Shown: positions 15,953 through 34,275, counted from the stretch's first letter. The stretch is 64,000 bases of DNA from an uncultured Mariniplasma sp. (GCA_964566285.1 CAZMIG010000003.1:28654-92653); one strand, 5' to 3'. The notes: a model not told the origin generated them from the sequence alone. Translations and numbers: made by a program.

Positions 15953-15981
15953 TTGACAAAGCATATTTAACATACTATAAT
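15953..15981 (+). promoter_or_regulatory. Sigma-A type promoter for the ABC/nuclease operon
   Basis: TTGACA (15953-15958), 17-nt spacer, TATAAT (15976-15981). About 285 nt upstream of the first CDS. Confidence 0.55.
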
Positions 15982-16267: not shown

Positions 16268-17320
16268 ATGGAGATTAGATTAGAAAATTTAACCAAAGTC
16301 TTTACCGATAAAAACGGCAAAGAAACCAGAGCTGTCGATGATTTAACCATTACAATTCCCTCAGGTAAGTTAGTTGGCTTATTAGGACCATCGGGATGTG
16401 GGAAATCAACAACTCTTTTTATGATTGCGGGTTTATTTAAACCATCAGGAGGAAAAATTTATTTTGGTAATGACGATGTTACTCGTCTTGCTCCAGAAAA
16501 AAGAGGAATTGGCTTAGTTTTCCAAAACTATGCGCTTTATCCTCACATGTCAGTACGTCAAAATATTATGTTTCCGCTTGAAAATTTGAATATAGGACGC
16601 GCTGAAGCCACAGTACTTGTTGAAGATATGGCTAAACTTGTTGGTATTAGTGATCAACTTGATAAGAAACCATCACAATTATCTGGTGGACAACAACAAC
16701 GTGTTGCTATTGCGAGAGCGTTGGTCAAAAAACCTCGAGTTTTATTATTGGATGAACCTCTATCTAACTTAGATGCAAGACTTCGTCTTCAAACAAGAGA
16801 AGAAATCAAACGTATTCAAAGAGAAACGGGTATTACAACGATATTTGTAACCCACGACCAAGAAGAAGCCATGAGTATCAGTGATAAAATGGTTGTTCTT
16901 GACTTTGGTGTACAGCAACAAATGGATATTCCTCAAGAAATGTATACTAAACCTGATAATTTATTTGTTGCTAAATTTTTAGGTAGCCCTCCTATCAATA
17001 TTTTAGAAGGAAAGATTGAAAATGGTAAAATAATCGTTGCCGATAACGTCGTTATTGGTTCAAAAGAAATTAAAGATGGAATTTATGACTTAGGCATTCG
17101 TCCTGAAGATTTTAAGTTCGATGTTAATGGATTTGAAGTCAATACAAAGGATATTGATCACACAGGTAGAGATACAATGATTCGTTTCCCAATGGGAGAT
17201 GTCATTGTCAGAGCACTTGTTGATTCAGATAGCGTTTATGGAAAAAAATCGATCAAATTAAGTGTTAAAAAAGATAAAATTCATGTATTTGAAAAAGAAA
17301 CAGGACATGTGGTTCTATGA
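16268..17320 (+). CDS. ABC transporter ATP-binding protein, CUT1 (MalK/MsmX/UgpC) type
   Basis: 350 aa. Walker A GPSGCGKST, signature LSGGQQQRVAIARAL, Walker B LLLDEPLSNLD, and a C-terminal MalK-like regulatory domain. Confidence 0.92.
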   Translation: MEIRLENLTKVFTDKNGKETRAVDDLTITIPSGKLVGLLGPSGCGKSTTLFMIAGLFKPSGGKIYFGNDDVTRLAPEKRGIGLVFQNYALYPHMSVRQNIMFPLENLNIGRAEATVLVEDMAKLVGISDQLDKKPSQLSGGQQQRVAIARALVKKPRVLLLDEPLSNLDARLRLQTREEIKRIQRETGITTIFVTHDQEEAMSISDKMVVLDFGVQQQMDIPQEMYTKPDNLFVAKFLGSPPINILEGKIENGKIIVADNVVIGSKEIKDGIYDLGIRPEDFKFDVNGFEVNTKDIDHTGRDTMIRFPMGDVIVRALVDSDSVYGKKSIKLSVKKDKIHVFEKETGHVVL

Positions 17321-18375
17321 AAGATTTTAAACATAAACTGAGGGATTTTCTTTGGAGGGCCAGAAATACCATCCATGTGTCTTCAGTCAGAACAAATGAG
17401 TTCTTTCAAAGACATCATTTAGGATTTATCACAAGGTGGCCAGGTTGGTTAAAAGCAATTTTTTATCTAGCTCCAGCGTTGACATTATTAGCAATATTCA
17501 CTTTTTACCCAATATTTAACTCATTTTTAATCTCATTTTATACCGGATATAACATTCAAACTGGTGAATTTGATGGTTATACATTCTTGGGTAACTACGC
17601 TGTTGTTCTACAGCATGCAAACTTTAAACAAGCTGTTCTAAACACAGCAATTATCGTTTTCGTGTCAGTTCCTATAACAATTATTGTTGGTCTATTAATT
17701 GCAGTAGCTTTAAACGCAGTTAAGCCATTGAAGAGTTTTTATCAAACCGTATTCTTTTTGCCCTATGTTACAAATACAATCGCTATTGGTTTGGTCTTTG
17801 CATTCATATTTAGTGGGAATACAAACACCATTGCAAATCCTGTCGGATTAGGGCTGGCAAACCAAGTAATTACTTTATTTGGAGGGAAACCCATAGCATG
17901 GGTAGCTACAGGTGCGACGTATTGGTCTGCAATGTCGGTTATTCTTGTTTATAGTGTTTGGAATGGACTTGCATTTAAGATTATCGTCTTTTTGGCAGGT
18001 ATCCAAGGCATTGATAAACAATATTACCAAGCAGCACAAATTGATGGAGCAAGTAGATCTAAATCATTTACTCGAATTACTGTTCCATTGATATCACCTA
18101 TGATTTTCTATATTTTAATTACTTCCGTTATTGGATCGTTTAAAACGTATTCATCTGTTGTAGCTATTATTAATCGTGAAGGTTTAATTACAACAGGTGC
18201 ACAGGGATCCATTAATTTAAAAACAATCGTTTTCTATATTTACGATTATATTGGTGGGGCAGCACTTAACGGTGTTATGTCATATGCTTCTGCAGCTGCG
18301 ATTATTCTCTTCGCAATCATACTGGTCTTTACGATAATCCAACTTCAAGTTGGTAAACGTAGAGTTCATTACTAG
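17317..18375 (+). CDS. ABC transporter permease (MalF/UgpA-like)
   Basis: 352 aa, multi-TM. EAA loop YYQAAQIDGASRSKSFTRITVPL. ATGA overlap with the ATPase stop. Confidence 0.88.
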   Translation: MKDFKHKLRDFLWRARNTIHVSSVRTNEFFQRHHLGFITRWPGWLKAIFYLAPALTLLAIFTFYPIFNSFLISFYTGYNIQTGEFDGYTFLGNYAVVLQHANFKQAVLNTAIIVFVSVPITIIVGLLIAVALNAVKPLKSFYQTVFFLPYVTNTIAIGLVFAFIFSGNTNTIANPVGLGLANQVITLFGGKPIAWVATGATYWSAMSVILVYSVWNGLAFKIIVFLAGIQGIDKQYYQAAQIDGASRSKSFTRITVPLISPMIFYILITSVIGSFKTYSSVVAIINREGLITTGAQGSINLKTIVFYIYDYIGGAALNGVMSYASAAAIILFAIILVFTIIQLQVGKRRVHY

Positions 18376-18388
18376 GAGGGAGAGCAAG

Positions 18389-19798
18389 ATGAAAAGAATT
18401 ACTAAAAAAATTAAAAAGCTTGATTTAATTGCTACTCTCATTGATTTAGTTTATGTATTTGCAGGTTTAGCACTCATTTCATACTTCTTTATTATTCTAA
18501 AAGAACCTCAATTCATTACAGAAGTTATTAACACAACATATAACGTTATGGGCATTACAATAACGTCAGCTCAACTTAATGCTGGCATTAGTATCCTAGT
18601 TGGATATCTTGTTGTATTTATTCCACTCATCGTTTCTCATTCCAAACGTATTAGAAACAAAGACGATATCGAAATGGATGAATGGACATATAGAACACAA
18701 TACCTTTATATGTTTATGAGTTTATTTACGCTAAACCCATTCAGCGCCTTTGTTCGTTATTTAATGGCTACTGAAATTCTGGAAACAGTTCAAGGGTATG
18801 GATTTGTTCAAGCAACGAAAAATGTTTTTATAACGCTCAAAGACCTTCTCACAGGAAAAACTTTCAAACGTATTAAAGAAAAAAGAGAGCACAGAAAACT
18901 TCAATCTGAATCTCAAGCTGACCTTGAAAAAATCAGTAGACAAGATTTAGTTGTTAAAGTTCTTGTCATGGTTGCAACTTATACTTTCTTGACAATGATT
19001 GCTCTATTCATCTTTATTCCATTTTATTGGATGATGATTACAGCTTTAAAAACTCATCAGGAATTATCAAATGCAATCACTCCACGTATGTTTGTAGGTA
19101 TTTCTGAAATGCAATGGGTAAACTTTAAAGTTGCATTAACACAATTTAATTTCTACAGATATATTCAAAACACAATCGTTGTTGGTATATTGTCGATGAT
19201 TGGTACAGTTATAACAACAATACTTGCAGCATTTGCATTTTCGAGATTAGATTTCAAAGGCCGTGAGTTTATTTTCTCAGTTCTATTAATGACAATGATG
19301 ATTCCAGGAGAACTATATACGATTACAAACTATATTACTGTTAGAAATCTTGGTTGGTATGATAGTTTCTACGCATTAATATTTCCATTCATGACAAGCG
19401 TATTTTATATTTTCTTCCTTAGACAATCATTTAAACAAATTCCTGACACACTCTACCGAGCGGCTCAGGTTGATGGCTGTGGAGATTTTAAATATTTAAG
19501 ACGCGTTATGATTCCAATTGCAAAACCAACAATTATTACAATTACAATTTTAAGTGCTATTGGTGCATGGGATGCATATATTTGGCCACAATTAGTTGCT
19601 CCATCACAGGAACATTGGCTAATTTCGGTCGCCTTAAGAAGTACAAGTTTTGTTACAGGTGAAGGTTCTGATGCACGACCAGTATATAACTTACAGCTGG
19701 CTGCAATTGCACTAGTCACCGTTCCACTCCTCATTATTTTCTTCTCACTTAAGAAATACATTATTAGAGGCGTTGGAAGAAGCGGAACGAAAGGTTAA
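18389..19798 (+). CDS. ABC transporter permease (MalG/UgpE-like) with an approximately 200-aa N-terminal membrane extension
   Basis: 469 aa from ATG 18389 (RBS AGGAGGGAG). EAA loop LYRAAQVDGCGDFKYLRRVMIPI. Extra N-terminal hydrophobic helices plus a charged linker KRIKEKREHRKLQSESQADLEK. Confidence 0.85.
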   Translation: MKRITKKIKKLDLIATLIDLVYVFAGLALISYFFIILKEPQFITEVINTTYNVMGITITSAQLNAGISILVGYLVVFIPLIVSHSKRIRNKDDIEMDEWTYRTQYLYMFMSLFTLNPFSAFVRYLMATEILETVQGYGFVQATKNVFITLKDLLTGKTFKRIKEKREHRKLQSESQADLEKISRQDLVVKVLVMVATYTFLTMIALFIFIPFYWMMITALKTHQELSNAITPRMFVGISEMQWVNFKVALTQFNFYRYIQNTIVVGILSMIGTVITTILAAFAFSRLDFKGREFIFSVLLMTMMIPGELYTITNYITVRNLGWYDSFYALIFPFMTSVFYIFFLRQSFKQIPDTLYRAAQVDGCGDFKYLRRVMIPIAKPTIITITILSAIGAWDAYIWPQLVAPSQEHWLISVALRSTSFVTGEGSDARPVYNLQLAAIALVTVPLLIIFFSLKKYIIRGVGRSGTKG

Positions 19799-19850
19799 TT
19801 ATAAGATATTAAGATTGAAAAAGACTAATAAATATATTTGGAGGAAAAAA

Positions 19851-22277
19851 ATGAAAAAAATAGTATTTACGATTCTCATATTATTTGGAGCATTAGCGCT
19901 TTCAGCGTGTGCAACAAAAAGAAATCAAGCACCGGTAATTTCGGGTGCAAATTTAACTCCCGAAATTTATTTAGGAGATGATTATGATCCTTTAGATGGG
20001 GTAACAGCAAGCGACCCCGAAGACGGTGATATCACATCTAGTATTGTAGTTAGTGGCCTAGAAGGCGCGACAGACTCTGTGGGAACTGCAACAATTATTT
20101 TATCAGTTTCGGATTCACAGGGACTTGAGGCAACAAGCGTTACAATCAATTTGACTGTTATAGCAGCAATTGTTCAAGTGCCAACACTTACAGGAGTTGT
20201 CACAAATCCTATGGTTACAGAAGATGATCTGTATAACCCACTCACTGGAGTTACAGCTACAGATATTCAAGATGGTATTTTGACGAGCAGTATTGAAACT
20301 GTAGGATATGATGCAAATGTTTTAGAAACCCCAGGCACATATACATTTTCAATATCTGTAACAGATAGCGATTCAAATACCACTTCAGTAACTGTTACGC
20401 TTACAGTTATTGCAAGAAGTTCATTTGAACCATCGATTAGTTTAGTCAATAGAAATCCTGTAATTACAGTTGGAGATCCTTTTAATCCTTTAACTGGAGT
20501 CACAGCGAGTGACCCTCAAGATGGTGATTTGACAAGTAGTATCGTTGTTTCAGGTTTTGATGTTGAAGACATCAGTGTACCCGGTGTTTATGTTATTACT
20601 CTTGAAATTACTGATGCAGATCAAAATACAACAAGTACGACATTAACATTAACTGTTCTTGCAGTTATTACGCCACCGGTAATTACAGGAGTTGTAGCAG
20701 TTCAGACATATTATATTGGTTCAGGCGCATATGATCCACTTTCTGGCGTTACTGCCACTGATTCAACTGACGGTAACATTACAGATCAAATCGTTGTTAC
20801 AGGTACATATTTATTGGATACTCCAGGCGTGTACACAATTACATTGCGTGTAACGAATTCAAATTTACTTAGAACATCAGTTACCATTCGTTTGACGGTA
20901 GCACAAAGTGAAATTCCACTCACACTTGGAACTGATCCAATTGAAATTACATTATGGCATGCAATGGGTGAAGCGAACCAAGCACTGCTTCAAAAGTATG
21001 CAGATAGCTTCCAGCTATTGTATCCTAATGTTACAGTAATTATTCCTGCTGGTGTCGGCTCTTATGACACATTAAAGACAAACATGATTAATGCAATTAC
21101 TGCTCAAGACATGCCTAATCTTGTTCAAGGGTATCCAGACCATGTAGCTGAATATTTAAATGGTAAAGCTGTAGTTAATTTGAATCCTTATATCTATAGT
21201 GATCAATGGGGTTTAAATGGAGATAATGCACTTGACGATGTTATTGCTTCATACCTTGAAGAAAACAGTCAGTATGATGCTGCTGGAACATATTATTCTC
21301 TCCCATTCAATAAATCTACAGAAATTATGATTTATAACAAGACAGTATTTACTGCACTTGGACTTGATGAACCAGAAACATGGCAAGATATTATTGCAGC
21401 TGGTCCAGATCTTAAAGAATATGGTGATGATCTAGCTGAAGCAAAAGTTAGAGCTGCAAATTCAACACTTGGTGAAACCGCTTTAGCTCCACTTATTGCA
21501 GCAGCTCAGTCATTGATTGTTCCTTCTTCATATGATTCTACAGGTAATGGATTCATTACATTTACACGACAATTTAATGGTGCGTATACGGGAATTGATT
21601 ATGCAACATTTAGCGGTGAGTATTTATGGAATGATAATGTAAATACAACTGCAGCAATGCAATTTTTGAAAGATAATAATGACATTATCACATTGCCAGA
21701 ATTTTGGGATCAAGAATTTGCTTCGGTACCATTCCTTGCCCAACAAACATTTGTAACTATAGGTTCATCCGCAGGTATTAGATATAATATTCCAGCAATT
21801 GATCCAACAACAAGTCTTCCAGTATTTGAAATTGCTGTAGGTCCAGTACCTTATAATGCTGATCTTCCTGATGCAAAAGCTGTTATTCAACAAGGAACTA
21901 ATATTTCATTGATGAAGACGGGCACAGCACAAGAACAACTTGCATCATGGTTATTCTTAAAACACTTAATTAAGACTGAAAACACAACTGACTGGGCTAT
22001 GAATACTGGCTATTTACCAGTTAGAACCAGTGCATATTTAAGTGCAGCATATCAAACTTTCTTAACTTCTCCTACTGCAAATCAACTTCCTATTTCTATG
22101 GCTGCAAACGCTGCATACAAACAATCCGGATATATGTTCTATGATCCAGCATTTATTGGTTCATCTAGAGCACGTGTTCAAGTTGGTTTAGCATTAGAAC
22201 GTATCATGATTGGCGATGGAAATATTGCAGAAGCACTTCTAGAAGCGTATACTGAAGCTAATTTGGGTGGATCGTGA
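19851..22277 (+). CDS. Lipoprotein: four Ig-like (DUF5011-like) repeats fused to an ABC extracellular solute-binding domain (family 1)
   Basis: 808 aa from ATG 19851 (RBS GGAGG). Lipobox LSAC. Four roughly 80-aa repeats of the form ...YDPLDGVTASDPEDGDITSSIVVSG...T.T.TV.A. The C-terminal half is SBP-like (ITLWHAMGEANQALLQKYADSF...). Confidence 0.85.
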   Translation: MKKIVFTILILFGALALSACATKRNQAPVISGANLTPEIYLGDDYDPLDGVTASDPEDGDITSSIVVSGLEGATDSVGTATIILSVSDSQGLEATSVTINLTVIAAIVQVPTLTGVVTNPMVTEDDLYNPLTGVTATDIQDGILTSSIETVGYDANVLETPGTYTFSISVTDSDSNTTSVTVTLTVIARSSFEPSISLVNRNPVITVGDPFNPLTGVTASDPQDGDLTSSIVVSGFDVEDISVPGVYVITLEITDADQNTTSTTLTLTVLAVITPPVITGVVAVQTYYIGSGAYDPLSGVTATDSTDGNITDQIVVTGTYLLDTPGVYTITLRVTNSNLLRTSVTIRLTVAQSEIPLTLGTDPIEITLWHAMGEANQALLQKYADSFQLLYPNVTVIIPAGVGSYDTLKTNMINAITAQDMPNLVQGYPDHVAEYLNGKAVVNLNPYIYSDQWGLNGDNALDDVIASYLEENSQYDAAGTYYSLPFNKSTEIMIYNKTVFTALGLDEPETWQDIIAAGPDLKEYGDDLAEAKVRAANSTLGETALAPLIAAAQSLIVPSSYDSTGNGFITFTRQFNGAYTGIDYATFSGEYLWNDNVNTTAAMQFLKDNNDIITLPEFWDQEFASVPFLAQQTFVTIGSSAGIRYNIPAIDPTTSLPVFEIAVGPVPYNADLPDAKAVIQQGTNISLMKTGTAQEQLASWLFLKHLIKTENTTDWAMNTGYLPVRTSAYLSAAYQTFLTSPTANQLPISMAANAAYKQSGYMFYDPAFIGSSRARVQVGLALERIMIGDGNIAEALLEAYTEANLGGS
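19929..20900 (+). repeat. Four tandem intragenic Ig-like domain repeats (about 240 nt each, diverged)
   Basis: The recurring protein motif P(L/T)xGVTA(S/T)D..DG.(I/L)T(S/D) occurs four times. Confidence 0.8.
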
Positions 22278-24355: not shown

Positions 24356-24380
24356 AAAAAATATAATGGAGGAAAGTCAA

Positions 24381-27300: not shown

Positions 27301-29531
27301 ATCCACTTGCTTGGGATGGCGGACCTCGTCTATTCTTTACAGATTCTACAACTATTACTAAGCAAGATTTATCAGATGCTGAAAGAGTTGCTTTGGCAAA
27401 ATCTACAGCTGTTGGATATTTTGAAGATGAATATAATGTAATTACAACTTTAGTTCCATTTACATCTTTATTTGGAGCTACAATCGCTTATGATACTGCA
27501 AGTGAATATTTTGATGTAACAACAGGCGAAGTAACTCTTCCTACAATGGGACGTGAAACTGTTAGTATTACAGCCACTATTTCATTCGGCACTGAAACTG
27601 ACACGGCTACAATTGAGTTTATCGTTGGACCATATCTAATATCGGATGTAAAGGCCGGGGTTGACGATGATGAGTTCCGTATTCAAGGTATAGTTATTTC
27701 AAGCCCTTACAACGCTACATATTTTATACAAGATGAATCTGGTGCACTTGCAATATATACATATGATACAGCACTTCAAGCTTTATTAGTCTTAGGTGAT
27801 CTTGTTGAAATAACTGGTGTTAGAGATTCATTTGGTGGATTAATAGAATTTGCACCAAGTACTGTTGTTGTTTTAGATAATGATGTCACACTACCGGATG
27901 CAGTTAATGTTGACTCCTTAGATTTAGACGATGAAGCATTATTACCATATCAATCACAGGTTGTTGTTATGACGCAAATGGTTGTTAATTCAATAGCAAC
28001 TGGATACAATAATTACTCCGTAATCTTATATAACGCAATCGCTGATGATACAATCGAACTTCGTTATGACACACGTCTTACAATTTCTACAACAGCTCTT
28101 GATGTTCTTCATGGCTTAGTTGTTGGTGATATTGTTGACGTTACATCTGTACTTTCGTGGTACTTTACTGGACCTCAATATATCTATACAGAATCTACTA
28201 TTGTTGTTGATACTCCAGTACCAAGTGCAGAAGCGCTTGCTGCAGTTGATAAAATGAAGGCTGATGCAGATGCAGCAGAACTTACTATTGTTGCAAAAGT
28301 TGAAGAAGCAACTACTTTGGACCTTGATGTTTTAGGTACAAATGGTTCCACCATTGTTTGGACATCAACTGATGATTTAGTCATTGATCCAGATACTGGT
28401 ATTGTTGTTCTTCCAGCAGAAGGTCAAGTCACAATTACTTTAACTGCTACAGTAACATTGAATTTAGCTGAAACTGTAGTTACATTTGATGTATTAGTTG
28501 GTGTTCCTTCTGCACCAGTTGTACAAACATTAGATTTATACTTCTCAGAATATATTGAAGGTAGTAGTTATAATAAAGCTATTGAAATTTATAACCCAAC
28601 TAATGCAACTATAGATTTAACTACTTATACTGTTGAACTTTATTCCAATGGATCAGCTACTGTTGGATTTACAGAAACACTAACAGGAACGTTAAATGCT
28701 GGCCAAACACTTGTTCTAGTTTATGCTTCAGCTACGGCAGCTTTTAAAGTTGGTAATTATGTTGAAAGTGCTGTAACAAACTTTAATGGTGATGACACAA
28801 TTCTACTTAAAAATGATGGTGCTATTATTGATAGCTTTGGACAAAATGGATTTGATCCAGGTACAAGTTGGACAGTGGGCGGTGTTAGTACAGCAAACAT
28901 GACTTTAATTAGAAAAGCTGCTGTCAAATATGGCGACCTAGATTCAACAAACGTTTTTGATCCAAGTGCTGAATGGGTTGCATTTGAACAAGATACTACA
29001 ACTTACCTTGGATACCATGCTCCTGATTTATTCATCTCTGAATATATTGAAGGTTCAAGTAGTAACAAGGCATTAGAAATTTATAACCCAACTGTAGAAA
29101 CTATTGATTTATCAACGTATGTTATTGAACAGTATAAAGGGACTTTAGTTGCAGATTATACATTATCACTCACTGGAACATTAGCTCCAGGTGCTGTATA
29201 TGTTATAGCTGCTGACCAAGCCAGTACAACTGTACTTGACTTGGCAGATTTAGAACTTTCTTATCCAAGTATTGTTCATTTCACCGGTGACGACACTATA
29301 GTTTTAAAAAATGCTACTACAATTATTGACTGTATTGGACAAATTGGATTCGATCCAGGTACTGCATGGGGAGTTTCTACTGTTAGTTATACAGCTGAAA
29401 TGACGCTCGTAAGAAATGTAGATATTATGCGTGGCTATACAGATGCACTTGCTGTTTACGATCCAACTCTTGAATGGACTTTTTACCCACAAGATACTTT
29501 TACTTATCTAGGATCTCATACAGTTAGCTAA
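24381..29531 (+). CDS. Giant surface lipoprotein: 8 Ig-like repeats, 3 OB-like modules, 2 C-terminal lamin-tail domains, no catalytic domain recognised
   Basis: 1716 aa from ATG 24381 (RBS GGAGGA). Lipobox LVGC. Repeats of the form LP.....ITWSS......ISN.GVVVRP..G..DA.V.LTATLT.G.....K.F.L.V. OB-like modules such as LVHVVGVVTANQYYRIFFIQDDTGGIAIYT. LTD motifs FSEYIEGSSYNKAIEIYNPT and ISEYIEGSSSNKALEIYNPT. Confidence 0.8.
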   Translation: MSKRLTFKSALSFIVILFTAFFLVGCGDTDQELVDAALSDVALVFATGDSATSVTQNLSLPTAVGETITISWSSDKTAVISNAGVVVRPAVGQPDATVVLTGTLTMGEATATKAFTLVVKAMVLTDQQTVDAAVPNVAITYATGDSATLVNEDVVLPTAVGTVVVAWSSDTPAVISNAGVVVRPAKGEADATVVLTATLTKGTATATKTFTLVVHALQYTDQELVDMAVTALMVGYAVGDTVDTVTADVTLAATSNTATVAWASDTPAVISNAGVVVRPAKGEADVVVILTATLTIGAVEETKTFTLTVLAIPYTEEDATAALDISGTDLVYNAETSRYTTTSDITLPETSLEFDIVWTSGNETFIGANGVVVRPAYGETDSTVILTATIGEETKEFIVTVLAITVKPAALKLADAATILLLSGGIEAGVVTGKLELATTVGTEGVTVAWASSDTTVITSTGSVYRPELGEENANVTLTATLSVDDESTTKVFNVIVTARTVAAEFSGTIAEVMAQAKDTYVRVVGVTIFGEALDGFYIADATGTAFIYGAAIPTDFDFGSVVDIEGFIDIYYLAMQISGTDAEPIYVLPSDAAVTEVAYPETAIDSITSMALPAVGTEFNMMPVTVTARVLVTGTGNYDVFLVPVDHRGDLDKDTALMIYYKSNIAALRPLDGQKVQIEIVVSTYRTNDLVWTFVFLQEAEDITIIPNTDLEWIEIAQGSLAYEFEKEYVLTETFELPTDIEGVAISWVSDNELFDVTTGVLAMPLTGQEDVTLTATLTKGDATGEFTATFKAGDKPVQTIAEALAVSTGDLVHVVGVVTANQYYRIFFIQDDTGGIAIYTSDADLITFLTTNYGKEVDIVGTRAANYGLNEISYTQIYSLVGDATMPIAVNIDSFELDATALAPYQGQLVELTGLAVLEIDEDKYGNISVTLYDANANEEIILKWDSRFTLTTEAAAVLDSIAVNDVIDIVNPLAWDGGPRLFFTDSTTITKQDLSDAERVALAKSTAVGYFEDEYNVITTLVPFTSLFGATIAYDTASEYFDVTTGEVTLPTMGRETVSITATISFGTETDTATIEFIVGPYLISDVKAGVDDDEFRIQGIVISSPYNATYFIQDESGALAIYTYDTALQALLVLGDLVEITGVRDSFGGLIEFAPSTVVVLDNDVTLPDAVNVDSLDLDDEALLPYQSQVVVMTQMVVNSIATGYNNYSVILYNAIADDTIELRYDTRLTISTTALDVLHGLVVGDIVDVTSVLSWYFTGPQYIYTESTIVVDTPVPSAEALAAVDKMKADADAAELTIVAKVEEATTLDLDVLGTNGSTIVWTSTDDLVIDPDTGIVVLPAEGQVTITLTATVTLNLAETVVTFDVLVGVPSAPVVQTLDLYFSEYIEGSSYNKAIEIYNPTNATIDLTTYTVELYSNGSATVGFTETLTGTLNAGQTLVLVYASATAAFKVGNYVESAVTNFNGDDTILLKNDGAIIDSFGQNGFDPGTSWTVGGVSTANMTLIRKAAVKYGDLDSTNVFDPSAEWVAFEQDTTTYLGYHAPDLFISEYIEGSSSNKALEIYNPTVETIDLSTYVIEQYKGTLVADYTLSLTGTLAPGAVYVIAADQASTTVLDLADLELSYPSIVHFTGDDTIVLKNATTIIDCIGQIGFDPGTAWGVSTVSYTAEMTLVRNVDIMRGYTDALAVYDPTLEWTFYPQDTFTYLGSHTVS

Positions 29532-29556
29532 TTATATTTGATATTTTAAGATTTAT

Positions 29557-29585
29557 AAGACGCATAGATTTTATGCGTCTTTTTC
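29557..29585 (+). terminator. Rho-independent terminator after the giant lipoprotein gene
   Basis: AAGACGCATA GATTT TATGCGTCTT followed by TTTT. Confidence 0.7.
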
Positions 29586-29658
29586 TTTGCTTTATTGTTC
29601 AAATGACATCTATAACATTATATGTTATAATACTTATGCCTACGAGGAGATAATTTAT

Positions 29659-31509
29659 ATGTTCAAAAAAGTATGTTTTATAATAATAAGTGTAATAAGT
29701 ATAATAAGCCTTGGGGCGTGTCATCAACCAGTAGAGGAAACTGATGATATCATATTACCTAATCTATCAGGGATGAATAAGACACAAGCACTTGATCAAT
29801 TTTCTGAGTTTGATCTAAATGTTACTGTAATAGATGTTATCAATAATGATATTATGGTTGGAAGGTTTATTTCTTATAACGAGCCATATATAGCAGGTAT
29901 GATTGTTCTTCCGGATACAGAAATTATATTGTATTTCGTGAAGCAAGCAAACGAATTACCTGATTTGTCAGGAATGAACCAGACAGAAATTATAGAGGAA
30001 CTATCCTTAATTGATGTTAATGTTTCTTTTGAGTATATTGATACAAATGCAATCCAAGAAGGACTATTTGTTCAATATGGTGATCTTCTAAAATCTGGAG
30101 ATATTGTAGATATTGGAACGGAAATTACTATTGATCTTGCAACTCCATTTGATGTTTTAGTTTACTTACCTAATTTGAGTGGACTAAATGAAGCAGAAAT
30201 AGAAATTAGATTATCAGCAATTGATATTGATTTCGATATACAGACCATTCAAAATAATGATGTATCAGAAGGATATTTTGTTCAATATGAAGGTCTATAC
30301 ATAACTGGTAGCGCAGTACCCTTGGGACAAGCAATTATTGTCTATGTTGCTGAACATGTCAATATGTTGCCAGACCTAGATGGCCTCAATCAGACTCAAA
30401 TCATCAGCAGATTAGCTAAAATTAGCGTCATCATTGAGTTTAAGGTCACTGCTACAAATGATATAGAAGAAGGATTGTTTGTAAATTATGGCAATGATTT
30501 ACAATCTGGAGATATCGTTAAGATCAATTCAATCGTTATAATATATATTGCTCAGCCTGTGATAACCGTTAATACTAACTTAATGATCTCTAGCTATCTC
30601 GAGGGGGCACTTTTGAATCGAGCAATTGAACTTTATAATGTTTCCGATGAACCGATTGACTTGTCAAACTATAAATTAGTTCTTTATCTTGACGGATTAG
30701 AATCAGTTGGGGTAACTATTGATTTGGAGGGAATTCTTTTGGCAAAAGATGTTTATGTGATTGCTCATGAAAACAGCAATGAAAGTATCTTATCGAAAGC
30801 TAACTTAACAACACAAAATTTGATTTTTAATGGCAATGATGCAGTTGCACTTCAATATTATAATGATGTTATTGTTGATATTGTTGGTAATATAGGATGG
30901 GGTTTATACTATTTAAGCGATCGGACACTGGTCAGAGATGGGTCTGTTTCTCAAGCAAGCGATCTTTTCAATATTGATGAATGGGATGAATACAGATCAG
31001 ATTATGATGCTATTTTGGGCATACATCCAACGCAATATCCAGTAACGTTCACTTTTGATTCATCATTTCTAACTGTTCCCTTTACTGAGCCCGGCGGAAT
31101 GATTGAAGTTGAATATGTTTCAATATATGATGGGGATACAGCATATTTTACACCAGGATTTCTTGGAGATAATAGAGTCCGTTTCATCGGAATTGATACG
31201 ACAGAAATAGGCAGTGGAACATTTGCTATTGCTGCAAGAAACTTTGTTGCATCTTTACTCTCTAATGCAACAACCATATACCTTCAACATGATCCTGAAT
31301 CTGGAATTGTTGATACATATGGAAGATCACTTGCACTCGTTTGGGCTGATGGTGTTCTCATAAATTATGAGGTCGTTCTTCATGGATACAGTCAAAACAA
31401 TTATCAGGACCCTACACACGCTTTAATTTTTAATAATATTCCACTCAGCACATGGATGACTAATGCTGAAAAATATGCAAAAGAAAATCACTTAGGAGTA
31501 TGGGCATAA
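29659..31509 (+). CDS. Surface lipoprotein nuclease B: PASTA-like x4 + lamin-tail domain + SNase (thermonuclease)
   Basis: 616 aa from ATG 29659 (RBS GAGGAG). Lipobox LGAC. Four repeats LPNLSGMN...(I/V)..G.F(I/V).Y. LTD ISSYLEGALLNRAIELYNVSDEPIDLSNY. SNase core VRFIGIDTTE...YGRSLALVWADGVLINYEVVLHGY. Confidence 0.8.
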   Translation: MFKKVCFIIISVISIISLGACHQPVEETDDIILPNLSGMNKTQALDQFSEFDLNVTVIDVINNDIMVGRFISYNEPYIAGMIVLPDTEIILYFVKQANELPDLSGMNQTEIIEELSLIDVNVSFEYIDTNAIQEGLFVQYGDLLKSGDIVDIGTEITIDLATPFDVLVYLPNLSGLNEAEIEIRLSAIDIDFDIQTIQNNDVSEGYFVQYEGLYITGSAVPLGQAIIVYVAEHVNMLPDLDGLNQTQIISRLAKISVIIEFKVTATNDIEEGLFVNYGNDLQSGDIVKINSIVIIYIAQPVITVNTNLMISSYLEGALLNRAIELYNVSDEPIDLSNYKLVLYLDGLESVGVTIDLEGILLAKDVYVIAHENSNESILSKANLTTQNLIFNGNDAVALQYYNDVIVDIVGNIGWGLYYLSDRTLVRDGSVSQASDLFNIDEWDEYRSDYDAILGIHPTQYPVTFTFDSSFLTVPFTEPGGMIEVEYVSIYDGDTAYFTPGFLGDNRVRFIGIDTTEIGSGTFAIAARNFVASLLSNATTIYLQHDPESGIVDTYGRSLALVWADGVLINYEVVLHGYSQNNYQDPTHALIFNNIPLSTWMTNAEKYAKENHLGVWA

Positions 31510-31510
31510 T

Positions 31511-32335
31511 ATGATTAAATATATCAACCGGATTATCTATGCTTTATTGGCAGCATTAGGATTAATGATTGTCTTCAACTTAACCGATTCATACGCAAGA
31601 ACACTCTATCTTGAAGAGCAGGGAGCAATTGCTATTGAAAATAATGATTACGCATATTTTATATCCGTAAGATTTTATGATGAAGTGCCACTTGTCGAAG
31701 AAACAATTACAGTTTCTGACCGCACATTTGATTTGATGATTTATCAAGCTGCATATATTCAGTTAGTAAACGAAACTTATGTTGTTCATGATGGAATTTA
31801 TATTATGATGCATCAAACGGTAGGCAATTCACTAAATGATTTCTTTACAGTTCGGATTTCTTCGGGAACCAAAATTACGAAAGATTTTATGGGAGTTAAA
31901 ATATTTAGTTTACCACTTTACTCAGTATTAGATGAGGATACTCAAGCATCTCTACTAAAGAAGAGTGCATTTGAAAGTGATAGTGTTTTTCAAACCATTA
32001 CCAATATAACTATTTTTCAGGACAATGATGAATTAACACAAATTCCTGTGAATATTGAAGAAACACAATTTACAGTAAAAACCGATATCATCGATTACAT
32101 CAATTTGAATGGATCTGCTCCAGATGAAGCATTCGGAAATGTATCTATGGCACCTATTATCGAAATTGATACAAGACCTATTGTTTTTCGTAATATTGCT
32201 ATCTATATCGTTTTCGCTATCGGAGTGACAGTTTTAATCTTCACAGCACGCAAGAGACTAGGTAAAAAAGAGCCTACAATAGGCGTTAAACAGGATATTG
32301 AAAAATTAGTAGAACAGGATAGAAAAGAGCGATGA
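31511..32335 (+). CDS. Hypothetical bitopic membrane protein (N- and C-terminal TM helices, extracytoplasmic middle)
   Basis: 274 aa. Starts 1 nt after the nuclease B stop. I recognise no family motif. Confidence 0.6.
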   Translation: MIKYINRIIYALLAALGLMIVFNLTDSYARTLYLEEQGAIAIENNDYAYFISVRFYDEVPLVEETITVSDRTFDLMIYQAAYIQLVNETYVVHDGIYIMMHQTVGNSLNDFFTVRISSGTKITKDFMGVKIFSLPLYSVLDEDTQASLLKKSAFESDSVFQTITNITIFQDNDELTQIPVNIEETQFTVKTDIIDYINLNGSAPDEAFGNVSMAPIIEIDTRPIVFRNIAIYIVFAIGVTVLIFTARKRLGKKEPTIGVKQDIEKLVEQDRKER

Positions 32336-32349
32336 ATATCGCTTTTTTC
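32326..32349 (+). terminator. Rho-independent terminator overlapping the stop codon
   Basis: AGCGAT GAAT ATCGCT followed by TTTTT. Confidence 0.6.
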
Positions 32350-32396
32350 TTCTATTTATGATATACTATTCTAATATAATTGAGAAAGGAACTTAC

Positions 32397-33356
32397 ATGA
32401 ATATTAAAACAAAAATCTATGAAATGATTAAAACTTACAAGGTAATTATCATTCATAGGCATTTAAGACCAGATATGGATGCAATCGGTAGCCAATATGG
32501 CCTATATTTAACGATCAAGGCTAATTTTCCTAATAAATCAGTATATGTTGTTGGTGATGCTAGCGACATGAGCTATCTATCAACAATGGATGATATACCT
32601 GATGAAACCTATCGAGACGCATTAGCAATTATTACAGATGTTTCGGTGACTAAACTAATTAGTGATGATCGGTATAATCTTGCTAAAGAGCGCATTATTA
32701 TTGATCACCATCAAAACGATACAGATGTATCTAATGTTTCAGTTTTTTATAAAGAACCAACTTTCGCTTCCGCATCTGAAATGATTGTTGATTTAATCAG
32801 AACCTTTAAATTAATAGTTACACCAGAAGCTGCAACTTATCTTTACGGAGGTATGGTTACTGATACTGGAAGATTTCTTCATCTAAATGATGCAAGCAAA
32901 ACATTTGAACTTGCAGCTTACATTACAAGATTCAACCCCAATATTCAAGAGTTCTATGCATATATCTATACTGAACCTCTCCAAAAAAGACTTACAAAAA
33001 ATTTATTTTCAACTTTTGAGACAACAGAAAATGGAGTTGCGTACAGAAAAAATGATGCTGAATTGATTAACAAAAGTGGATTGGAGTTTCAGTCTATAAG
33101 TCGAGGTATGGTTAATCAAATGGCGGGTATCAAAGAGATTCCTATTTGGGCAAACTTTACAGAAGACGTTGAAAATAATGTCATCGTTGGAGAATTTAGA
33201 GCAAGAGGTATTACCATTGTTGACATTGCCAAGAAATATGGTGGTGGTGGACACAATCAGGCTTGTGGAGCAAGTTTTAAGAATTGGCGAGATGTTGATT
33301 TAATTATCAAAGATTTAGACGAAAGGGCAAAATTACATGCAAAAGATACTAAATAA
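32397..33356 (+). CDS. DHH/DHHA1 phosphoesterase (NrnA-like nanoRNase/pAp phosphatase), paralog 1
   Basis: 319 aa from ATG 32397. Motifs HRHLRPDMDAIGS, DHHQN, GGGGHNQACGASF. Confidence 0.85.
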   Translation: MNIKTKIYEMIKTYKVIIIHRHLRPDMDAIGSQYGLYLTIKANFPNKSVYVVGDASDMSYLSTMDDIPDETYRDALAIITDVSVTKLISDDRYNLAKERIIIDHHQNDTDVSNVSVFYKEPTFASASEMIVDLIRTFKLIVTPEAATYLYGGMVTDTGRFLHLNDASKTFELAAYITRFNPNIQEFYAYIYTEPLQKRLTKNLFSTFETTENGVAYRKNDAELINKSGLEFQSISRGMVNQMAGIKEIPIWANFTEDVENNVIVGEFRARGITIVDIAKKYGGGGHNQACGASFKNWRDVDLIIKDLDERAKLHAKDTK

Positions 33357-34275
33357 AATTAAAGAATATAATACGATTATCATTCACGGACACAAAAGAC
33401 CAGATGGGGATTGTTATGGATCTCAATTTGGATTAAAAAATATTATAAAAAATTCATTTCCGGATAAAAAAGTTTATGTCGTTGGTCAAACGAGTGCTTT
33501 TGTTGATTTCATTGGTAAAATAGATGAAATCACTGACGAAACTTATCAAGGTGCTTTAAGCATTGTTGTAGATACGGCAGTTGAAGATAGAATTAGTGAT
33601 CCACGTTATTCGTTAGGCAAAGAGATTATTAAAATTGATCATCATATTCCCGTTGATGATTATGGCGATATTAGATGGGTTGATACAAATTTTCCTTCAT
33701 GTGCACAAATGATTGCGTATTTTTACTACAAAAATAAAAAAGAATTAAAATTATCATTAGATGGAGCAATCGCAATGTATACAGGAATCGTCACTGACAC
33801 AGGGAGATTCCGTTTTAGAGGTGTTTCTAACCTCACACATAAAATGGCTGGCATGTTACTAGATAAGGGCGTAGACGTCGAATACATAGACTCAAAACTC
33901 AGTAAAGAATCCTTAGAGATGATTGGTCTTAAAGGATATGTATATAGTAATTTTGTTACAACGAAGGGCTTTATCTATTTGAAGATGACAAGAGACATCA
34001 TAGATAAATTCCAAGTAACTGATGAGCAAGCTGCATCTGTTGTGGGCTTGTTAGGCGGTATTGAAGGATTTCCGGTATGGGCGTTATTTATTGAATACCC
34101 AAATGAAGTTAGAATTAGATTGAGATCTAATGGTCCTACAATCAATGAACTAGCAAATAGATTTGGTGGAGGCGGACACGCAAAAGCATCAGGAGCAAGA
34201 TTAGAAAGTTGGGATCAACTTCCAGAATTTATTGCCGATGTTGAAGCTGTAGTAAAAGCTTATAACGAAGCATAA
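33337..34275 (+). CDS. DHH/DHHA1 phosphoesterase (NrnA-like), paralog 2
   Basis: 312 aa. Motifs HGHKRPDGDCYGS, DHHIP, GGGGHAKASGARL. Overlaps paralog 1 by 20 nt. Confidence 0.85.
   Translation: MQKILNKIKEYNTIIIHGHKRPDGDCYGSQFGLKNIIKNSFPDKKVYVVGQTSAFVDFIGKIDEITDETYQGALSIVVDTAVEDRISDPRYSLGKEIIKIDHHIPVDDYGDIRWVDTNFPSCAQMIAYFYYKNKKELKLSLDGAIAMYTGIVTDTGRFRFRGVSNLTHKMAGMLLDKGVDVEYIDSKLSKESLEMIGLKGYVYSNFVTTKGFIYLKMTRDIIDKFQVTDEQAASVVGLLGGIEGFPVWALFIEYPNEVRIRLRSNGPTINELANRFGGGGHAKASGARLESWDQLPEFIADVEAVVKAYNEA

What the first reader, a model, noticed from the sequence alone, without database searches (positions are those of the whole stretch)
16268..34275. Candidate system for extracellular DNA capture, digestion and import: CUT1 ABC importer, two SNase lipoproteins, an LTD/OB giant lipoprotein and tandem NrnA
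What the sequence shows: a consensus promoter (15953-15981) precedes a MalK-type ATPase, two EAA-loop permeases and a lipoprotein solute-binding protein. The binding-protein stop (TGA 22275-22277) overlaps the GTG start (22274) of a lipoprotein with a staphylococcal-nuclease core (VRYLGIDAPE...GRYLAWVW). Twenty-five nt later a 1716-aa lipoprotein begins, with three OB-like modules and two lamin-tail domains (SEYIEGSS.NKA.EIYNPT) but no catalytic domain I can recognise. After a hairpin terminator comes a second lipoprotein combining a lamin-tail domain with SNase (VRFIGIDTTE...GRSLALVW). A membrane protein starts 1 nt after its stop, and two DHH/DHHA1 (NrnA-like) genes follow. What is established: SNase releases 3'-phospho mono- and dinucleotides. 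Lamin-tail domains recur in secreted bacterial nucleases (ExeM/NucH type). OB plus SNase occurs in B. subtilis YhcR. NrnA degrades very short oligonucleotides and pAp. The CUT1 family includes the glycerophosphodiester/glycerol-phosphate importer UgpBAEC. From memory, SNase-like lipoprotein nucleases of some Mycoplasma species (Mhp379, MAG_5040) also lie inside ABC-transporter operons whose substrate was never shown. What I infer: the block may be one functional unit that tethers DNA at the surface, cuts it, imports the phosphorylated products through a Ugp-like importer, and finishes them with NrnA. Such an elaborate multi-domain version would be undescribed, and it would address how wall-less or low-GC nucleotide auxotrophs take up nucleic-acid precursors.
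Basis: partly seen in the sequence, partly recalled or inferred. Interest (0 to 1): 0.8.

Follow-up and report, generated by a model that had tools for sequence, protein, structure and literature searches.

The report
Nucleic-acid capture, digestion and import locus
A wall-less bacterium carries a gene block that most likely catches DNA or RNA at the cell surface, cuts it, imports the small fragments and finishes them inside; loci of this kind are already described in related bacteria, but what is imported has never been shown, and here it looks like dinucleotides.

Summary
The block is one conserved unit. Of 39 related genomes with enough sequence downstream of the binding-protein gene, 37 keep an SNase gene, 36 the giant protein and 31 NrnA. 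Both SNase domains keep their catalytic residues. The giant lipoprotein has no catalytic domain; it consists of 8 Ig-like domains, 3 tandem-OB modules and 2 lamin-tail domains. The modelled binding protein is closest to a Thermus thermophilus ABC binding protein crystallised with the dinucleotide UpG. The residues mutated in that study have identical or conservative counterparts here, and seven of the eight counterpart positions are (nearly) invariant in 83 family members. Distant relatives couple the importer to NrnA and the cytoplasmic nucleotidase SurE. This favours import of short phosphorylated nucleic-acid fragments over nucleosides. The claim that the system is undescribed does not hold. 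"DNA-degradation loci" of Izemoplasmatales and SNase–ABC operons of Mycoplasma are published. I file it as a new member of a known kind, with a sharper and testable substrate hypothesis. In passing I found a conserved leader ORF of 24–25 codons that ends at the foot of a terminator upstream of the operon. It looks like an undescribed attenuator.

The parts
15953..15981 (+). Promoter P1 (TTGACA-17-TATAAT)
   Evidence: 12 of 12 consensus matches. The hexamers are conserved in most of 31 aligned loci.
15993..16006 (+). Operator-like palindrome TAAAAGCGCTTTCA. It resembles a cre or LacI-family site and lies just downstream of the P1 -10 hexamer.
   Evidence: Nearly invariant in the 31-locus alignment. 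It is not repeated elsewhere in the window above chance. The binding factor is unknown.
16099..16190 (+). Leader ORF: Shine-Dalgarno GAGGTG at 16099-16104, ATG at 16113, 25 codons, TAA at 16188-16190. Peptide MPALQFTIRTTICETNTIVFFVSKL. It contains a conserved run of seven U.
   Evidence: The SD and ATG are invariant or nearly so. The ORF is 24-25 codons in 26 of 40 loci, and its stop lies 0-2 nt from the terminator stem in nearly all of those.
16189..16226 (+). Intrinsic terminator (attenuator) hairpin plus U-run, 42 nt upstream of the ATPase start
   Evidence: It is the only helix in the RNAalifold consensus. It has 10 pairs, 5 of them with compensatory changes.
16268..17320 (+). ABC ATPase, MalK/UgpC type
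   Evidence: ABC_tran E=9e-37. UgpC model 344 bits, below the 432-bit cutoff.
17317..18375 (+). Permease 1 (UgpA/MalF-like, EAA loop)
   Evidence: BPD_transp_1 E=3e-15. About 6 predicted transmembrane segments.
18389..19798 (+). Permease 2 (UgpE/MalG-like) with about 200 extra N-terminal residues (2 extra transmembrane segments)
   Evidence: BPD_transp_1 E=1e-15. Gene call of 469 aa. 8 predicted transmembrane segments.
19851..22277 (+). Solute-binding lipoprotein: four Ig-like stalk domains plus a CUT1 binding domain that resembles a dinucleotide-binding protein
   Evidence: Pfam. AF2 model with pLDDT 91.8. The top 22 Foldseek matches are chains of the T. thermophilus UpG-bound protein. Residue mapping.
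22274..24355 (+). Lipoprotein nuclease 1: PASTA repeats, Ig-like domain, SNase, C-terminal tandem-OB module
   Evidence: SNase E=4e-10. Counterparts of D21, R35, D40, E43 and R87 are present. The C-terminal end aligns with the giant protein's OB modules.
24381..29531 (+). Giant non-catalytic lipoprotein (1716 aa): 8 aBig_2 domains, 3 tandem-OB modules, 2 lamin-tail domains
   Evidence: aBig_2 E=6e-129 and LTD E=2e-29. Matches the N-terminal region of ExeM. The OB-module model matches Teb1, HIN-200, RPA70 and SSB.
29557..29631 (+). Terminator (29557-29581) followed by a promoter (29603-29631) for the second transcription unit
   Evidence: 11-pair hairpin plus T-run. The promoter scores 11/12 with a TG extension.
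29659..31509 (+). Lipoprotein nuclease 2: four PASTA repeats, lamin-tail domain, SNase
   Evidence: PASTA, LTD and SNase. All catalytic residues and Y85 are present. 42 % identical to the SNase core of nuclease 1.
31511..32335 (+). Conserved membrane protein of unknown function. It has 2 transmembrane segments and a loop of about 200 aa that is probably extracellular. Its start lies 1 nt after the stop of nuclease 2, which suggests translational coupling.
   Evidence: No Pfam or NCBIfam family. It follows the PASTA-LTD-SNase gene in 31 of 39 full-length loci, even where that pair has moved. Topology.
32321..32350 (+). Terminator after the membrane-protein gene
   Evidence: 13-pair hairpin plus T-run.
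32358..33356 (+). NrnA paralogue 1 (DHH/DHHA1); the true start is probably ATG 32397
   Evidence: NrnA model E=2e-67. The DHH and GGGH motifs are present in the translation. No signal peptide is visible at the N-terminus.
33337..34275 (+). NrnA paralogue 2 (DHH/DHHA1)
   Evidence: NrnA model E=1e-80. 36 % identical to paralogue 1. The tandem pair is kept in most loci.

Best explanation
This is a nucleic-acid utilisation locus of a free-living wall-less Acholeplasmataceae bacterium. It is the nucleic-acid counterpart of a polysaccharide utilisation locus.

Proposed mechanism:
1. Extracellular DNA or RNA is held at the membrane surface by a giant non-catalytic lipoprotein with three tandem-OB modules and two lamin-tail domains. 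The OB and lamin-tail domains fused to the two nucleases probably help.
2. Two membrane-anchored staphylococcal-type nucleases cut the nucleic acid to mono- and dinucleotides and short oligonucleotides. For this enzyme family the products carry 3'-phosphates.
3. A stalked lipoprotein binding protein related to UgpB and to the Thermus dinucleotide-binding protein captures the short phosphodiester products. These are most likely dinucleotides. It hands them to a CUT1-type ABC importer.
4. Two cytoplasmic NrnA paralogues hydrolyse the imported fragments to mononucleotides. The NrnA family has both oligonucleotidase and 3'-phosphatase (pAp) activity. In some distant lineages one NrnA plus SurE does this job.

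Expression appears to be controlled by a conserved leader containing an operator-like palindrome and a leader-ORF/terminator attenuator.

Shown here: domain content, intact catalytic residues, gene-cluster conservation, structural and residue-level similarity of the binding protein, and the layout of transcription signals.
Shown in relatives (literature): growth on DNA/RNA and induction of comparable loci.
Inferred: DNA binding by the giant protein, the identity of the imported molecule, the division of labour between the NrnA paralogues, and the regulatory logic.
For: Cluster conservation. The order ATPase, two permeases, binding protein, (SNase), giant protein, PASTA-LTD-SNase, membrane protein, NrnA, NrnA recurs in loci whose binding proteins are 87 % down to 32 % identical to the window's. 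Of 39 loci with at least 9.5 kb downstream of the binding-protein gene, 37 have SNase, 36 the giant protein and 31 NrnA. The only 4 loci with none of these end less than 700 bp after that gene. In L052-L054, L057, L067 and L080 the nuclease (plus membrane-protein) genes lie upstream of the ABC genes instead, so the association survives rearrangement.

Distant lineages. MAGs labelled Turicibacter, Bacilli, Clostridiaceae and Spirochaetales keep the ABC genes with SNase and/or NrnA. Four of them add a SurE nucleotidase gene whose product starts with a cytoplasmic-type N-terminus.

Enzymes. The SNase catalytic residues are intact in both nucleases. Both NrnA paralogues keep the DHH and GGGH motifs.

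Binding protein. The model has pLDDT 91.8. The top 22 Foldseek matches are chains of the T. thermophilus protein bound to UpG (TM-score 0.74 by query length, 0.84 by target length). M. tuberculosis UgpB ranks 23 and E. coli UgpB follows. The eight residues mutated in the Thermus study (Y56, F79, N81, S127, Y224, T240, Y246, Q274) align to Y47, Y70, D72, S131, F260, S281, Y287 and Q323 of the binding domain. Six of these are invariant in 82-83 of 83 family members; Y287 is Y in 67 and position 260 varies. E. coli UgpB has Ala and Gly at the Y287 and Q323 positions.

Giant protein. One module modelled at pLDDT 86 matches tandem-OB DNA binders: Teb1, HIN-200, RPA70 and SSB.

Literature. Loci listing comparable genes are induced by DNA or DNA/RNA, and the strains carrying them grow better with added nucleic acid (PMC8397711; PMC10470597). 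The same model is proposed for Mycoplasma SNase-ABC operons (PMC3585158).
Against: - No binding or transport data exist for any member of this binding-protein family.
- Foldseek scores for the Thermus protein and for UgpB are close (E 2e-24 against 9e-23). Fold alone therefore does not separate dinucleotide binding from glycerophosphodiester binding.
- The UpG in the Thermus crystals was endogenously bound, and its authors call the finding a moonlighting function, so its physiological ligand is itself uncertain.
- SNase products carry 3'-phosphates, whereas UpG does not.
- Whether NrnA accepts 5'-OH/3'-phosphate fragments was not tested here.
- Part of the gene order could be inherited synteny. 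The locus lies next to dnaX-recR in both the window and distant loci, and NrnA could be a housekeeping gene.
- Wasmund et al. read the same transporters as nucleoside or nucleobase importers.
Confidence: 0.6

Rival explanations
1. It is the same nucleic-acid-scavenging locus, but the ABC transporter imports nucleosides or nucleobases. These would be produced outside the cell by nucleases plus nucleotidases encoded elsewhere. NrnA would then be unrelated housekeeping.
For: This is the published reading for the homologous Izemoplasmatales loci (PMC8289736). Charged nucleotides are generally thought not to cross membranes. The genomes of relatives encode secreted 5'-nucleotidases.
Against: No nucleotidase or phosphatase with a signal peptide lies in the cluster. 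The binding protein is of CUT1/UgpB type. It is not the Bmp/PnrA type of nucleoside binding protein, as exemplified by Mycoplasma P48 (PMC12892991). Its closest solved relatives all bind phosphodiester or phosphate ligands. The cytoplasmic enzymes that co-travel with it, NrnA and SurE, act on phosphorylated substrates.
Confidence: 0.15
2. The transporter is a genuine Ugp-type importer of glycerol-phosphate or glycerophosphodiesters, or a sugar importer. It sits beside the nucleases only because both serve phosphate or carbon scavenging, or through inherited synteny.
For: The best NCBIfam models for all four ABC components are UgpC, UgpA, UgpE and UgpB. The best sequence hits in the PDB are UgpB proteins. 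Sources annotate homologues as glycerol-3-phosphate or multiple-sugar binding proteins.
Against: All four scores lie far below the equivalog cutoffs, for example UgpB 82 bits against 411. The residues shared with the UpG binder (Y287, Q323, T325, N326, K130) differ in E. coli UgpB. The nuclease genes are present in 37 of 39 full-length loci and stay linked through rearrangements.
Confidence: 0.1
3. The surface nucleases and the giant DNA-binding protein serve mainly a non-nutritional role. Examples are remodelling extracellular-DNA matrices, escaping DNA traps, or processing DNA for transformation. The transporter and NrnA would then be bystanders.
For: Mycoplasma SNase lipoproteins degrade neutrophil extracellular traps (PMC9740415). 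ExeM/Xds-type lamin-tail nucleases act in biofilms (from my own knowledge of that family).
Against: The organism appears in environmental metagenomes rather than in hosts. The tight operon structure with the importer, including overlapping stop and start codons, points to coupled function. Relatives grow on DNA/RNA (PMC8397711, PMC10470597). This role does not exclude the nutritional one.
Confidence: 0.1

Closest known systems
'DNA-degradation loci' of Candidatus Izemoplasmatales (Wasmund et al. 2021, PMC8289736) and the DNA- or nucleic-acid-degradation loci of Xianfuyuplasma coldseepsis zrk13 and Hujiaoplasma nucleasis zrk29 (PMC8397711, PMC10470597)
   Same: Secreted nucleases, an ABC transporter with a binding protein, a large lamin-tail protein and DHH-type phosphohydrolases are clustered in wall-less free-living relatives. 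Izemoplasmatales MAGs are among the loci recovered here with the window's binding protein (L025, L053, L055, L060, L068, L085). The gene list published for zrk29 (NrnA, ABC transporters, nucleoid-associated protein, RecR) fits the window's neighbourhood, where DnaX and RecR lie downstream.
   Different: The published loci also contain phosphate (pst) transporters, an EddB-type protein or non-specific endonucleases; I did not find these in the window. The published large protein (1,049 aa) was reported to include a nuclease domain, whereas this one (1716 aa) is non-catalytic. The papers assign the transporter to nucleosides or nucleobases and did not analyse the binding protein, the NrnA/SurE coupling or the leader.
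Mycoplasma SNase-lipoprotein/ABC operons (Mhp379, MAG_5040 with the P80 binding protein, MHO_0730, Mpn133; the polynucleotide-binding lipoprotein MslA)
   Same: A membrane SNase lipoprotein is co-transcribed with a sugar-type ABC importer and a lipoprotein binding protein. These operons are proposed to supply nucleotide precursors (PMC3585158, PMC9740415). The window's binding-protein family gives a weak but consistent match to the Mycoplasma P68 lipoprotein model: 35 of 35 members, best E 2e-15.
   Different: The Mycoplasma versions are minimal, with one nuclease, no giant OB/lamin-tail protein and no adjacent NrnA reported. Orthology of the transporters was not tested here because no Mycoplasma sequences were available. 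The P68 scores are far below the model's cutoff.
Thermus thermophilus dinucleotide-binding protein of an ABC transporter (PDB 7C0F/7C0K/7C0L; Chandravanshi et al. 2021, FEBS J 288:4614)
   Same: It is the best structural match (TM-score 0.74/0.84). The shared motifs include PFNKS and QGTN. Of the eight mutated residues, four are identical and four conservatively replaced in the window protein.
   Different: Only about 20 % identity. The Thermus protein has no Ig-like stalk. Its genomic context and physiological substrate were not examined here.
UgpBAEC glycerol-phosphate/glycerophosphodiester importer (CUT1)
   Same: Same transporter architecture. It gives the best NCBIfam models and the best PDB sequence hits. 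Its ligands are also phosphate esters or diesters.
   Different: Scores are far below the equivalog cutoffs. The pocket positions corresponding to Y287, Q323, T325 and N326 differ in E. coli UgpB. The genomic context is nucleases rather than glycerophosphodiesterase.
ExeM/NucH/Xds-type extracellular nucleases and B. subtilis YhcR
   Same: Lamin-tail and OB domains are combined with a nuclease on the cell surface. The N-terminal region of the ExeM model matches the giant protein and nuclease 2. OB plus SNase occurs in nuclease 1, as in YhcR (YhcR architecture from my own knowledge).
   Different: The catalytic domain here is SNase, not the endonuclease/exonuclease/phosphatase fold. The binding domains are largely split off into a separate non-catalytic giant protein.

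Membership tests
CUT1 family ABC importer (TC 3.A.1.1) | MalK/UgpC-type ATPase with a C-terminal regulatory domain | tested here: met
   ABC_tran E=9e-37. The OB_MalK match is weak (23.8 bits, just below the cutoff). The UgpC model aligns over residues 2-348 at 344 bits.
CUT1 family ABC importer (TC 3.A.1.1) | Two BPD_transp_1 permeases with EAA loops, plus an SBP_bac_1/8 binding protein | tested here: met
   BPD_transp_1 in both permeases and SBP_bac_8 at E=6e-26. The EAA motifs are visible in the translations.
UgpBAEC (sn-glycerol-3-phosphate/glycerophosphodiester importer) | Scores above the NCBIfam equivalog cutoffs for UgpB, UgpA, UgpE and UgpC | tested here: not met
   UgpB 82 bits against 411, UgpA 71 against 335, UgpE 90 against 297, UgpC 344 against 432.
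UgpBAEC (sn-glycerol-3-phosphate/glycerophosphodiester importer) | The Trp pair that binds the glycerol moiety (E. coli W169/W172; described in PMC12718374) | tested here: inconclusive
   The profile alignments to E. coli UgpB do not cover that segment, so the equivalent residues could not be assigned.
Dinucleotide-binding ABC binding protein (T. thermophilus, PDB 7C0F) | Same fold with the closest structural similarity | tested here: met
   The top 22 Foldseek matches are its chains, E 2e-24, TM-score 0.74/0.84. UgpB is only slightly weaker.
Dinucleotide-binding ABC binding protein (T. thermophilus, PDB 7C0F) | Conservation of the residues mutated in that study (Y56, F79, N81, S127, Y224, T240, Y246, Q274), taken here as ligand contacts | tested here: met
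   They align to Y47, Y70, D72, S131, F260, S281, Y287 and Q323: four identical and four conservative. Six of the eight positions are invariant in 82-83 of 83 family members; Y287 is Y in 67 and position 260 varies. The mapping comes from sequence alignment only.
Dinucleotide-binding ABC binding protein (T. thermophilus, PDB 7C0F) | Measured binding of a dinucleotide | not testable with these tools
   Needs ITC, thermal shift or a crystal structure of the purified domain.
Staphylococcal nuclease (SNase) family | Catalytic and Ca2+-binding residues D21, R35, D40, E43 and R87 | tested here: met
   All are present in both nucleases in the alignment to S. aureus nuclease. T41 is Ala in nuclease 1; this residue binds Ca2+ through its backbone (my own knowledge).
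NrnA (bifunctional oligoribonuclease / pAp phosphatase) | DHH plus DHHA1 domains with DHH and GGGH motifs; score above the NCBIfam equivalog cutoff | tested here: inconclusive
   The domains and motifs are present. The NrnA model scores 228 and 271 bits, below the 350-bit cutoff. Both proteins are NrnA-like paralogues, but equivalence is not established.
DNA-degradation locus of Izemoplasmatales (Wasmund 2021) | Co-located secreted nucleases, an ABC transporter, a large lamin-tail protein and further nucleases or phosphohydrolases | tested here: met
   All are present in the window. Izemoplasmatales MAGs are recovered as homologous loci with the same gene order.
DNA-degradation locus of Izemoplasmatales (Wasmund 2021) | Adjacent phosphate (pst) ABC transporter | tested here: not met
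   No Pst components were found among the window ORFs scanned with Pfam. A few ORFs were not scanned.

The most novel reading that the evidence does not exclude
The ABC system would be a dedicated importer of dinucleotides or short 3'-phospho-oligonucleotides. That would make it the long-sought route by which Mollicutes and their relatives take up phosphorylated nucleic-acid precursors intact. Its cargo would be finished inside by specialised NrnA paralogues, one acting as a 3'-phosphatase and one as a dinucleotidase. The whole operon would be switched by a previously undescribed attenuator: a Thr-rich leader ORF of 24-25 codons that ends at the foot of a terminator. It could act through U-run (UTP-sensitive) pausing or through a nascent-peptide stall at the stop codon, and so might report the cell's nucleotide status.
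Probability: 0.35. Interest if true: 0.8.

Novelty: new member of a known kind. Interest (0 to 1): 0.5.

Why it matters
Extracellular DNA is a major source of phosphorus, nitrogen and carbon in sediments and digesters. Mollicutes cannot make nucleotides de novo. The transporter that brings nucleic-acid breakdown products into these cells has never been identified biochemically. In the Mycoplasma literature read here the SNase–ABC link is still presented as a model.

This locus, with the family census made here, narrows the question to one protein family. Its pocket is invariant, and its nearest solved relative is a dinucleotide binder. The family occurs in cultured strains (Acholeplasma equifetale, Peloplasma aerotolerans, Mariniplasma anaerobium). 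The hypothesis can therefore be tested directly by ligand-binding and uptake assays.

If it holds, the current picture would change. That picture assumes DNA must be broken down to nucleosides outside the cell before uptake. The result would also carry over to the pathogenic Mycoplasma operons.

Tried and rejected
- **Rfam.** I scanned the whole window at gathering thresholds and the leader at permissive thresholds. The only real hit is a T-box at 14146-14362. The leader matches no known riboswitch.
- **Leader structure.** RNAalifold on 31 leaders supports only the terminator hairpin, so I dropped a riboswitch-like fold.
- **Antiterminator.** A long-range pairing between the 5' end of the P1 transcript and the 5' arm of the terminator appears in the minimum-free-energy fold (z = -3.8). 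It forms standard pairs in 84 % of alignment cells. It has no covariation support because both sides barely vary. I keep it only as an idea.
- **Palindromes.** I searched the window for more copies of the two leader palindromes. The counts were at chance level for one and marginal for the other, so there is no regulon evidence.
- **OB module.** A homologue search with the OB module gave only 2 hits. Pfam at relaxed thresholds gave only weak BOF and DUF5689 matches. The fold assignment therefore rests on the AF2 model.
- **Membrane protein.** The 274-aa protein matches no Pfam or NCBIfam family.
- **Mycoplasma link.** The MslA paper (PMC3754236) is not held in the library. The P68 lipoprotein match shows remote homology only. 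P68 is mhp390, which the papers read here do not place in the Mhp379 operon.
- **Mycoplasma P48.** The paper on this protein concerns a PnrA-type nucleoside binder, which is a different family.
- **SurE.** It occurs in only four distant loci and not in the window or in any other locus fetched.

Full report
**Where the window comes from.** The window holds dnaA, dnaN, gyrB, gyrA, rnpA, yidC and jag next to the block, so the block lies close to the chromosomal origin. Exact copies of the ATPase protein occur on metagenome contigs. The nearest genomes are MAGs labelled Acholeplasmataceae, Mariniplasma or Bacillota. The organism is therefore an uncultured, free-living, wall-less relative of Acholeplasma.

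**Check of the observation.**
- The ATPase is of MalK/UgpC type, and there are two BPD_transp_1 permeases with EAA loops.
- The binding protein is an 808-aa lipoprotein with an SBP_bac_8 domain.
- One lipoprotein carries an SNase domain, and its GTG start overlaps the binding protein's TGA stop.
- A 1716-aa lipoprotein with 8 aBig_2 and 2 lamin-tail domains starts 25 nt further on.
- A second lipoprotein combines a lamin-tail domain with SNase.
- A membrane protein starts 1 nt after that gene's stop, and two DHH/DHHA1 genes follow.
- The 12/12 promoter at 15953-15981 and the terminator at 29557-29581 are confirmed.
- The same scan adds a promoter at 29603-29631 and a terminator at 32321-32350. 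The block therefore has three likely transcription units: ABC genes, nuclease 1 and the giant protein; nuclease 2 and the membrane protein; and the two NrnA genes.

- The binding protein has four Ig-like stalk domains.
- Both nucleases carry PASTA repeats.
- The second permease has two extra N-terminal transmembrane segments.
- The C-terminal end of nuclease 1 holds the same OB module as the giant protein.

**Are the parts functional?** Aligned to S. aureus nuclease, both SNase domains keep D21, R35, D40, E43 and R87. Both NrnA paralogues keep the DHH and GGGH motifs and are 36 % identical. The giant protein is fully accounted for by 8 Ig-like domains, three modules of about 200 aa and two lamin-tail domains, which leaves no room for a catalytic domain. 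One module was modelled at pLDDT 86. It is a tandem OB pair whose structural matches are all tandem-OB DNA binders: Teb1, HIN-200, RPA70 and Deinococcus SSB. Whole-module TM-scores are low (about 0.35), which I attribute to a different relative orientation of the two barrels.

**Is it one unit?** I fetched 80 loci around homologues of the binding protein from one genome per species. I scored every ORF in them against the window's domains. The same gene order recurs from 87 % down to about 40 % binding-protein identity. Of the 39 loci with at least 9.5 kb downstream, 37 have SNase, 36 the giant protein, 34 a lamin-tail domain, 31 the membrane protein and 31 NrnA. The only four loci with none of these end within 700 bp of the binding-protein gene. 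In several lineages the nuclease-2 gene, with or without the membrane-protein gene, lies upstream of the ABC genes instead. The genes thus stay together through rearrangement. At 32-38 % identity, MAGs labelled Bacilli, Clostridiaceae, Spirochaetales and Turicibacter still pair the importer with SNase and/or NrnA. Four of them add SurE, a 5'/3'-nucleotidase with a cytoplasmic-type N-terminus. One caveat applies: dnaX and recR adjoin the locus in both the window and the distant loci. Some of the linkage may therefore be inherited synteny.

**What is imported?** By sequence the binding domain is nearest to UgpB, and then to a Thermus thermophilus protein deposited as a 'sugar ABC transporter' binding protein.
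- *Fold.* The AlphaFold model (pLDDT 91.8) places that Thermus protein first. The top 22 Foldseek matches are its chains, described as a dinucleotide-binding protein bound to uridylyl-3'-5'-phospho-guanosine. UgpB from M. tuberculosis and E. coli follow. The scores are close, so fold alone does not discriminate.
- *Residues.* The eight residues mutated in the Thermus study align to Y47, Y70, D72, S131, F260, S281, Y287 and Q323 of the window's domain. Four are identical and four conservative. E. coli UgpB has Ala and Gly at the positions of Y287 and Q323, and it lacks the shared QGTN and FNKS motifs.
- *Family conservation.* Across 83 binding proteins from all loci, Y47, Y70, D72, K130, S131, S281, Q322, Q323, N326, Y363 and R367 are invariant or differ in a single sequence, and T325 in two. 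Y287 is Y in 67 of 83, and position 260 varies. The whole family, including the Turicibacter-type loci with NrnA and SurE, thus probably binds the same class of ligand.
- *Context.* There is no secreted phosphatase in the cluster, and the cytoplasmic enzymes linked to it act on phosphorylated substrates.

Together this favours import of short phosphodiester or phosphorylated fragments over nucleosides. It is not proof. The Thermus ligand was bound endogenously, and its physiological relevance is uncertain. SNase products also carry 3'-phosphates, which UpG lacks.

**What is already known.** Wasmund et al. 2021 described 'DNA-degradation loci' in Izemoplasmatales. These hold several secreted nucleases, further nucleases and phosphohydrolases, ABC transporters whose binding-protein homologues also neighbour nucleases, phosphate transporters and a large lamin-tail protein. 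The authors proposed nucleoside or nucleobase transport. Zheng et al. showed that cultured Xianfuyuplasma coldseepsis and Hujiaoplasma nucleasis degrade DNA (and RNA), grow better with it and up-regulate such loci. The Hujiaoplasma locus lists NrnA, ABC transporters, a nucleoid-associated protein and RecR, which fits the window's neighbourhood. For Mycoplasma, the SNase lipoprotein, P80 binding protein and ABC operon has been a model for precursor uptake since Mhp379 and MAG_5040. The claim that the system is undescribed is therefore wrong. What remains unshown is the substrate. I found no paper linking these loci to the Thermus dinucleotide binder.

**Regulation, found in passing.** The 280 nt between the promoter and the ATPase start are 70-80 % identical in loci whose binding proteins are only about 42 % identical. 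Rfam finds nothing there. The alignment shows these elements in order:
- the promoter;
- a near-invariant palindrome, AAAAGCGCTTT, resembling a cre or LacI-type operator, just after the -10 hexamer;
- a second invariant palindrome, TATTATATAATA, which contains a -10-like hexamer;
- an invariant Shine-Dalgarno sequence (GAGGTG) and ATG;
- an ORF of 24-25 codons in 26 of 40 loci, whose stop codon (TAA, TAG or TGA) lies 0-2 nt from a terminator stem in nearly all of them;
- a conserved run of seven U inside that ORF;
- the terminator itself, which is the only helix RNAalifold supports, with compensatory changes in 5 of its 10 pairs.

The peptide is 20 % Thr and has fixed positions: Q5, I8, T10, T15 and V19-F20-F21-I22. 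nhmmer finds the element once per locus, always upstream of the ATPase gene, in about 40 of the 81 sequences searched (the window plus 80 loci). This layout is that of a translation-coupled attenuator. Candidate mechanisms are UTP-sensitive pausing at the U-run, as in pyrBI (textbook knowledge). Alternatives are a stall at the Thr codons or a nascent-peptide stall at the stop codon. I could not distinguish between them.

**Verdict.** The locus is a new member of a published kind. Three things are added here: a specific and testable substrate hypothesis, the NrnA/SurE coupling, and a conserved leader-ORF attenuator.

Noticed in passing
window 15948-16267 (leader ORF 16113-16190, terminator 16189-16226); also L007, L010, L011, L064, L065, L069, L070 and about 30 further loci, just upstream of the ATPase gene: The 280-nt leader is more conserved at the DNA level (70-80 %) than the operon's proteins (about 42 %). 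It holds an invariant Shine-Dalgarno sequence and ATG, and a Thr-rich ORF of 24-25 codons that ends at the foot of an intrinsic terminator. It also holds a conserved run of seven U and two near-invariant palindromes, AAAAGCGCTTT and TATTATATAATA. Rfam has no match. It looks like an undescribed leader-ORF attenuator.
   Followed up: partly
window 31511-32335; homologues follow the PASTA-LTD-SNase gene in 31 of 39 full-length loci: This is a conserved 274-aa protein with two transmembrane segments and a loop of about 200 aa that is probably extracellular. It belongs to no known family. Its start lies 1 nt after the stop of nuclease 2, and it moves together with that gene when the pair is relocated. 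Its role is unknown; it could be a nuclease partner, an anchor or a regulator.
   Followed up: partly
L074 18232-18999, L081 4239-4961, L084 4962-5705, L086 14110-14838: In distant loci labelled Turicibacter, Bacilli or Bacillota, the importer is followed by a single NrnA gene (two in L074) and then by a SurE (5'/3'-nucleotidase) gene. Where only one NrnA is present, SurE may stand in for the second paralogue.
   Followed up: partly
window 14146-14362: A T-box leader (105 bits, above the gathering score) lies upstream of the class II aminoacyl-tRNA synthetase gene at 14433-15824. This is ordinary.
   Followed up: no
window 43021-47535 (- strand), next to 47714-50894: A 1504-aa ORF with no Pfam family lies beside a MacB/FtsX-type permease gene (839 aa) and an ABC ATPase gene.
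   Followed up: no
window 19851-20924 and homologues P0001-P0120: The window's binding protein has four Ig-like stalk domains (808 aa). Most homologues are about 644 aa, so the stalk length varies between close relatives.
   Followed up: no
binding-protein family (alignment A3): All 35 members scanned give a weak match to the NCBIfam 'P68 family surface lipoprotein' model of Mycoplasma (best E 2e-15, far below the cutoff). This hints at remote homology to Mycoplasma surface lipoproteins.
   Followed up: partly
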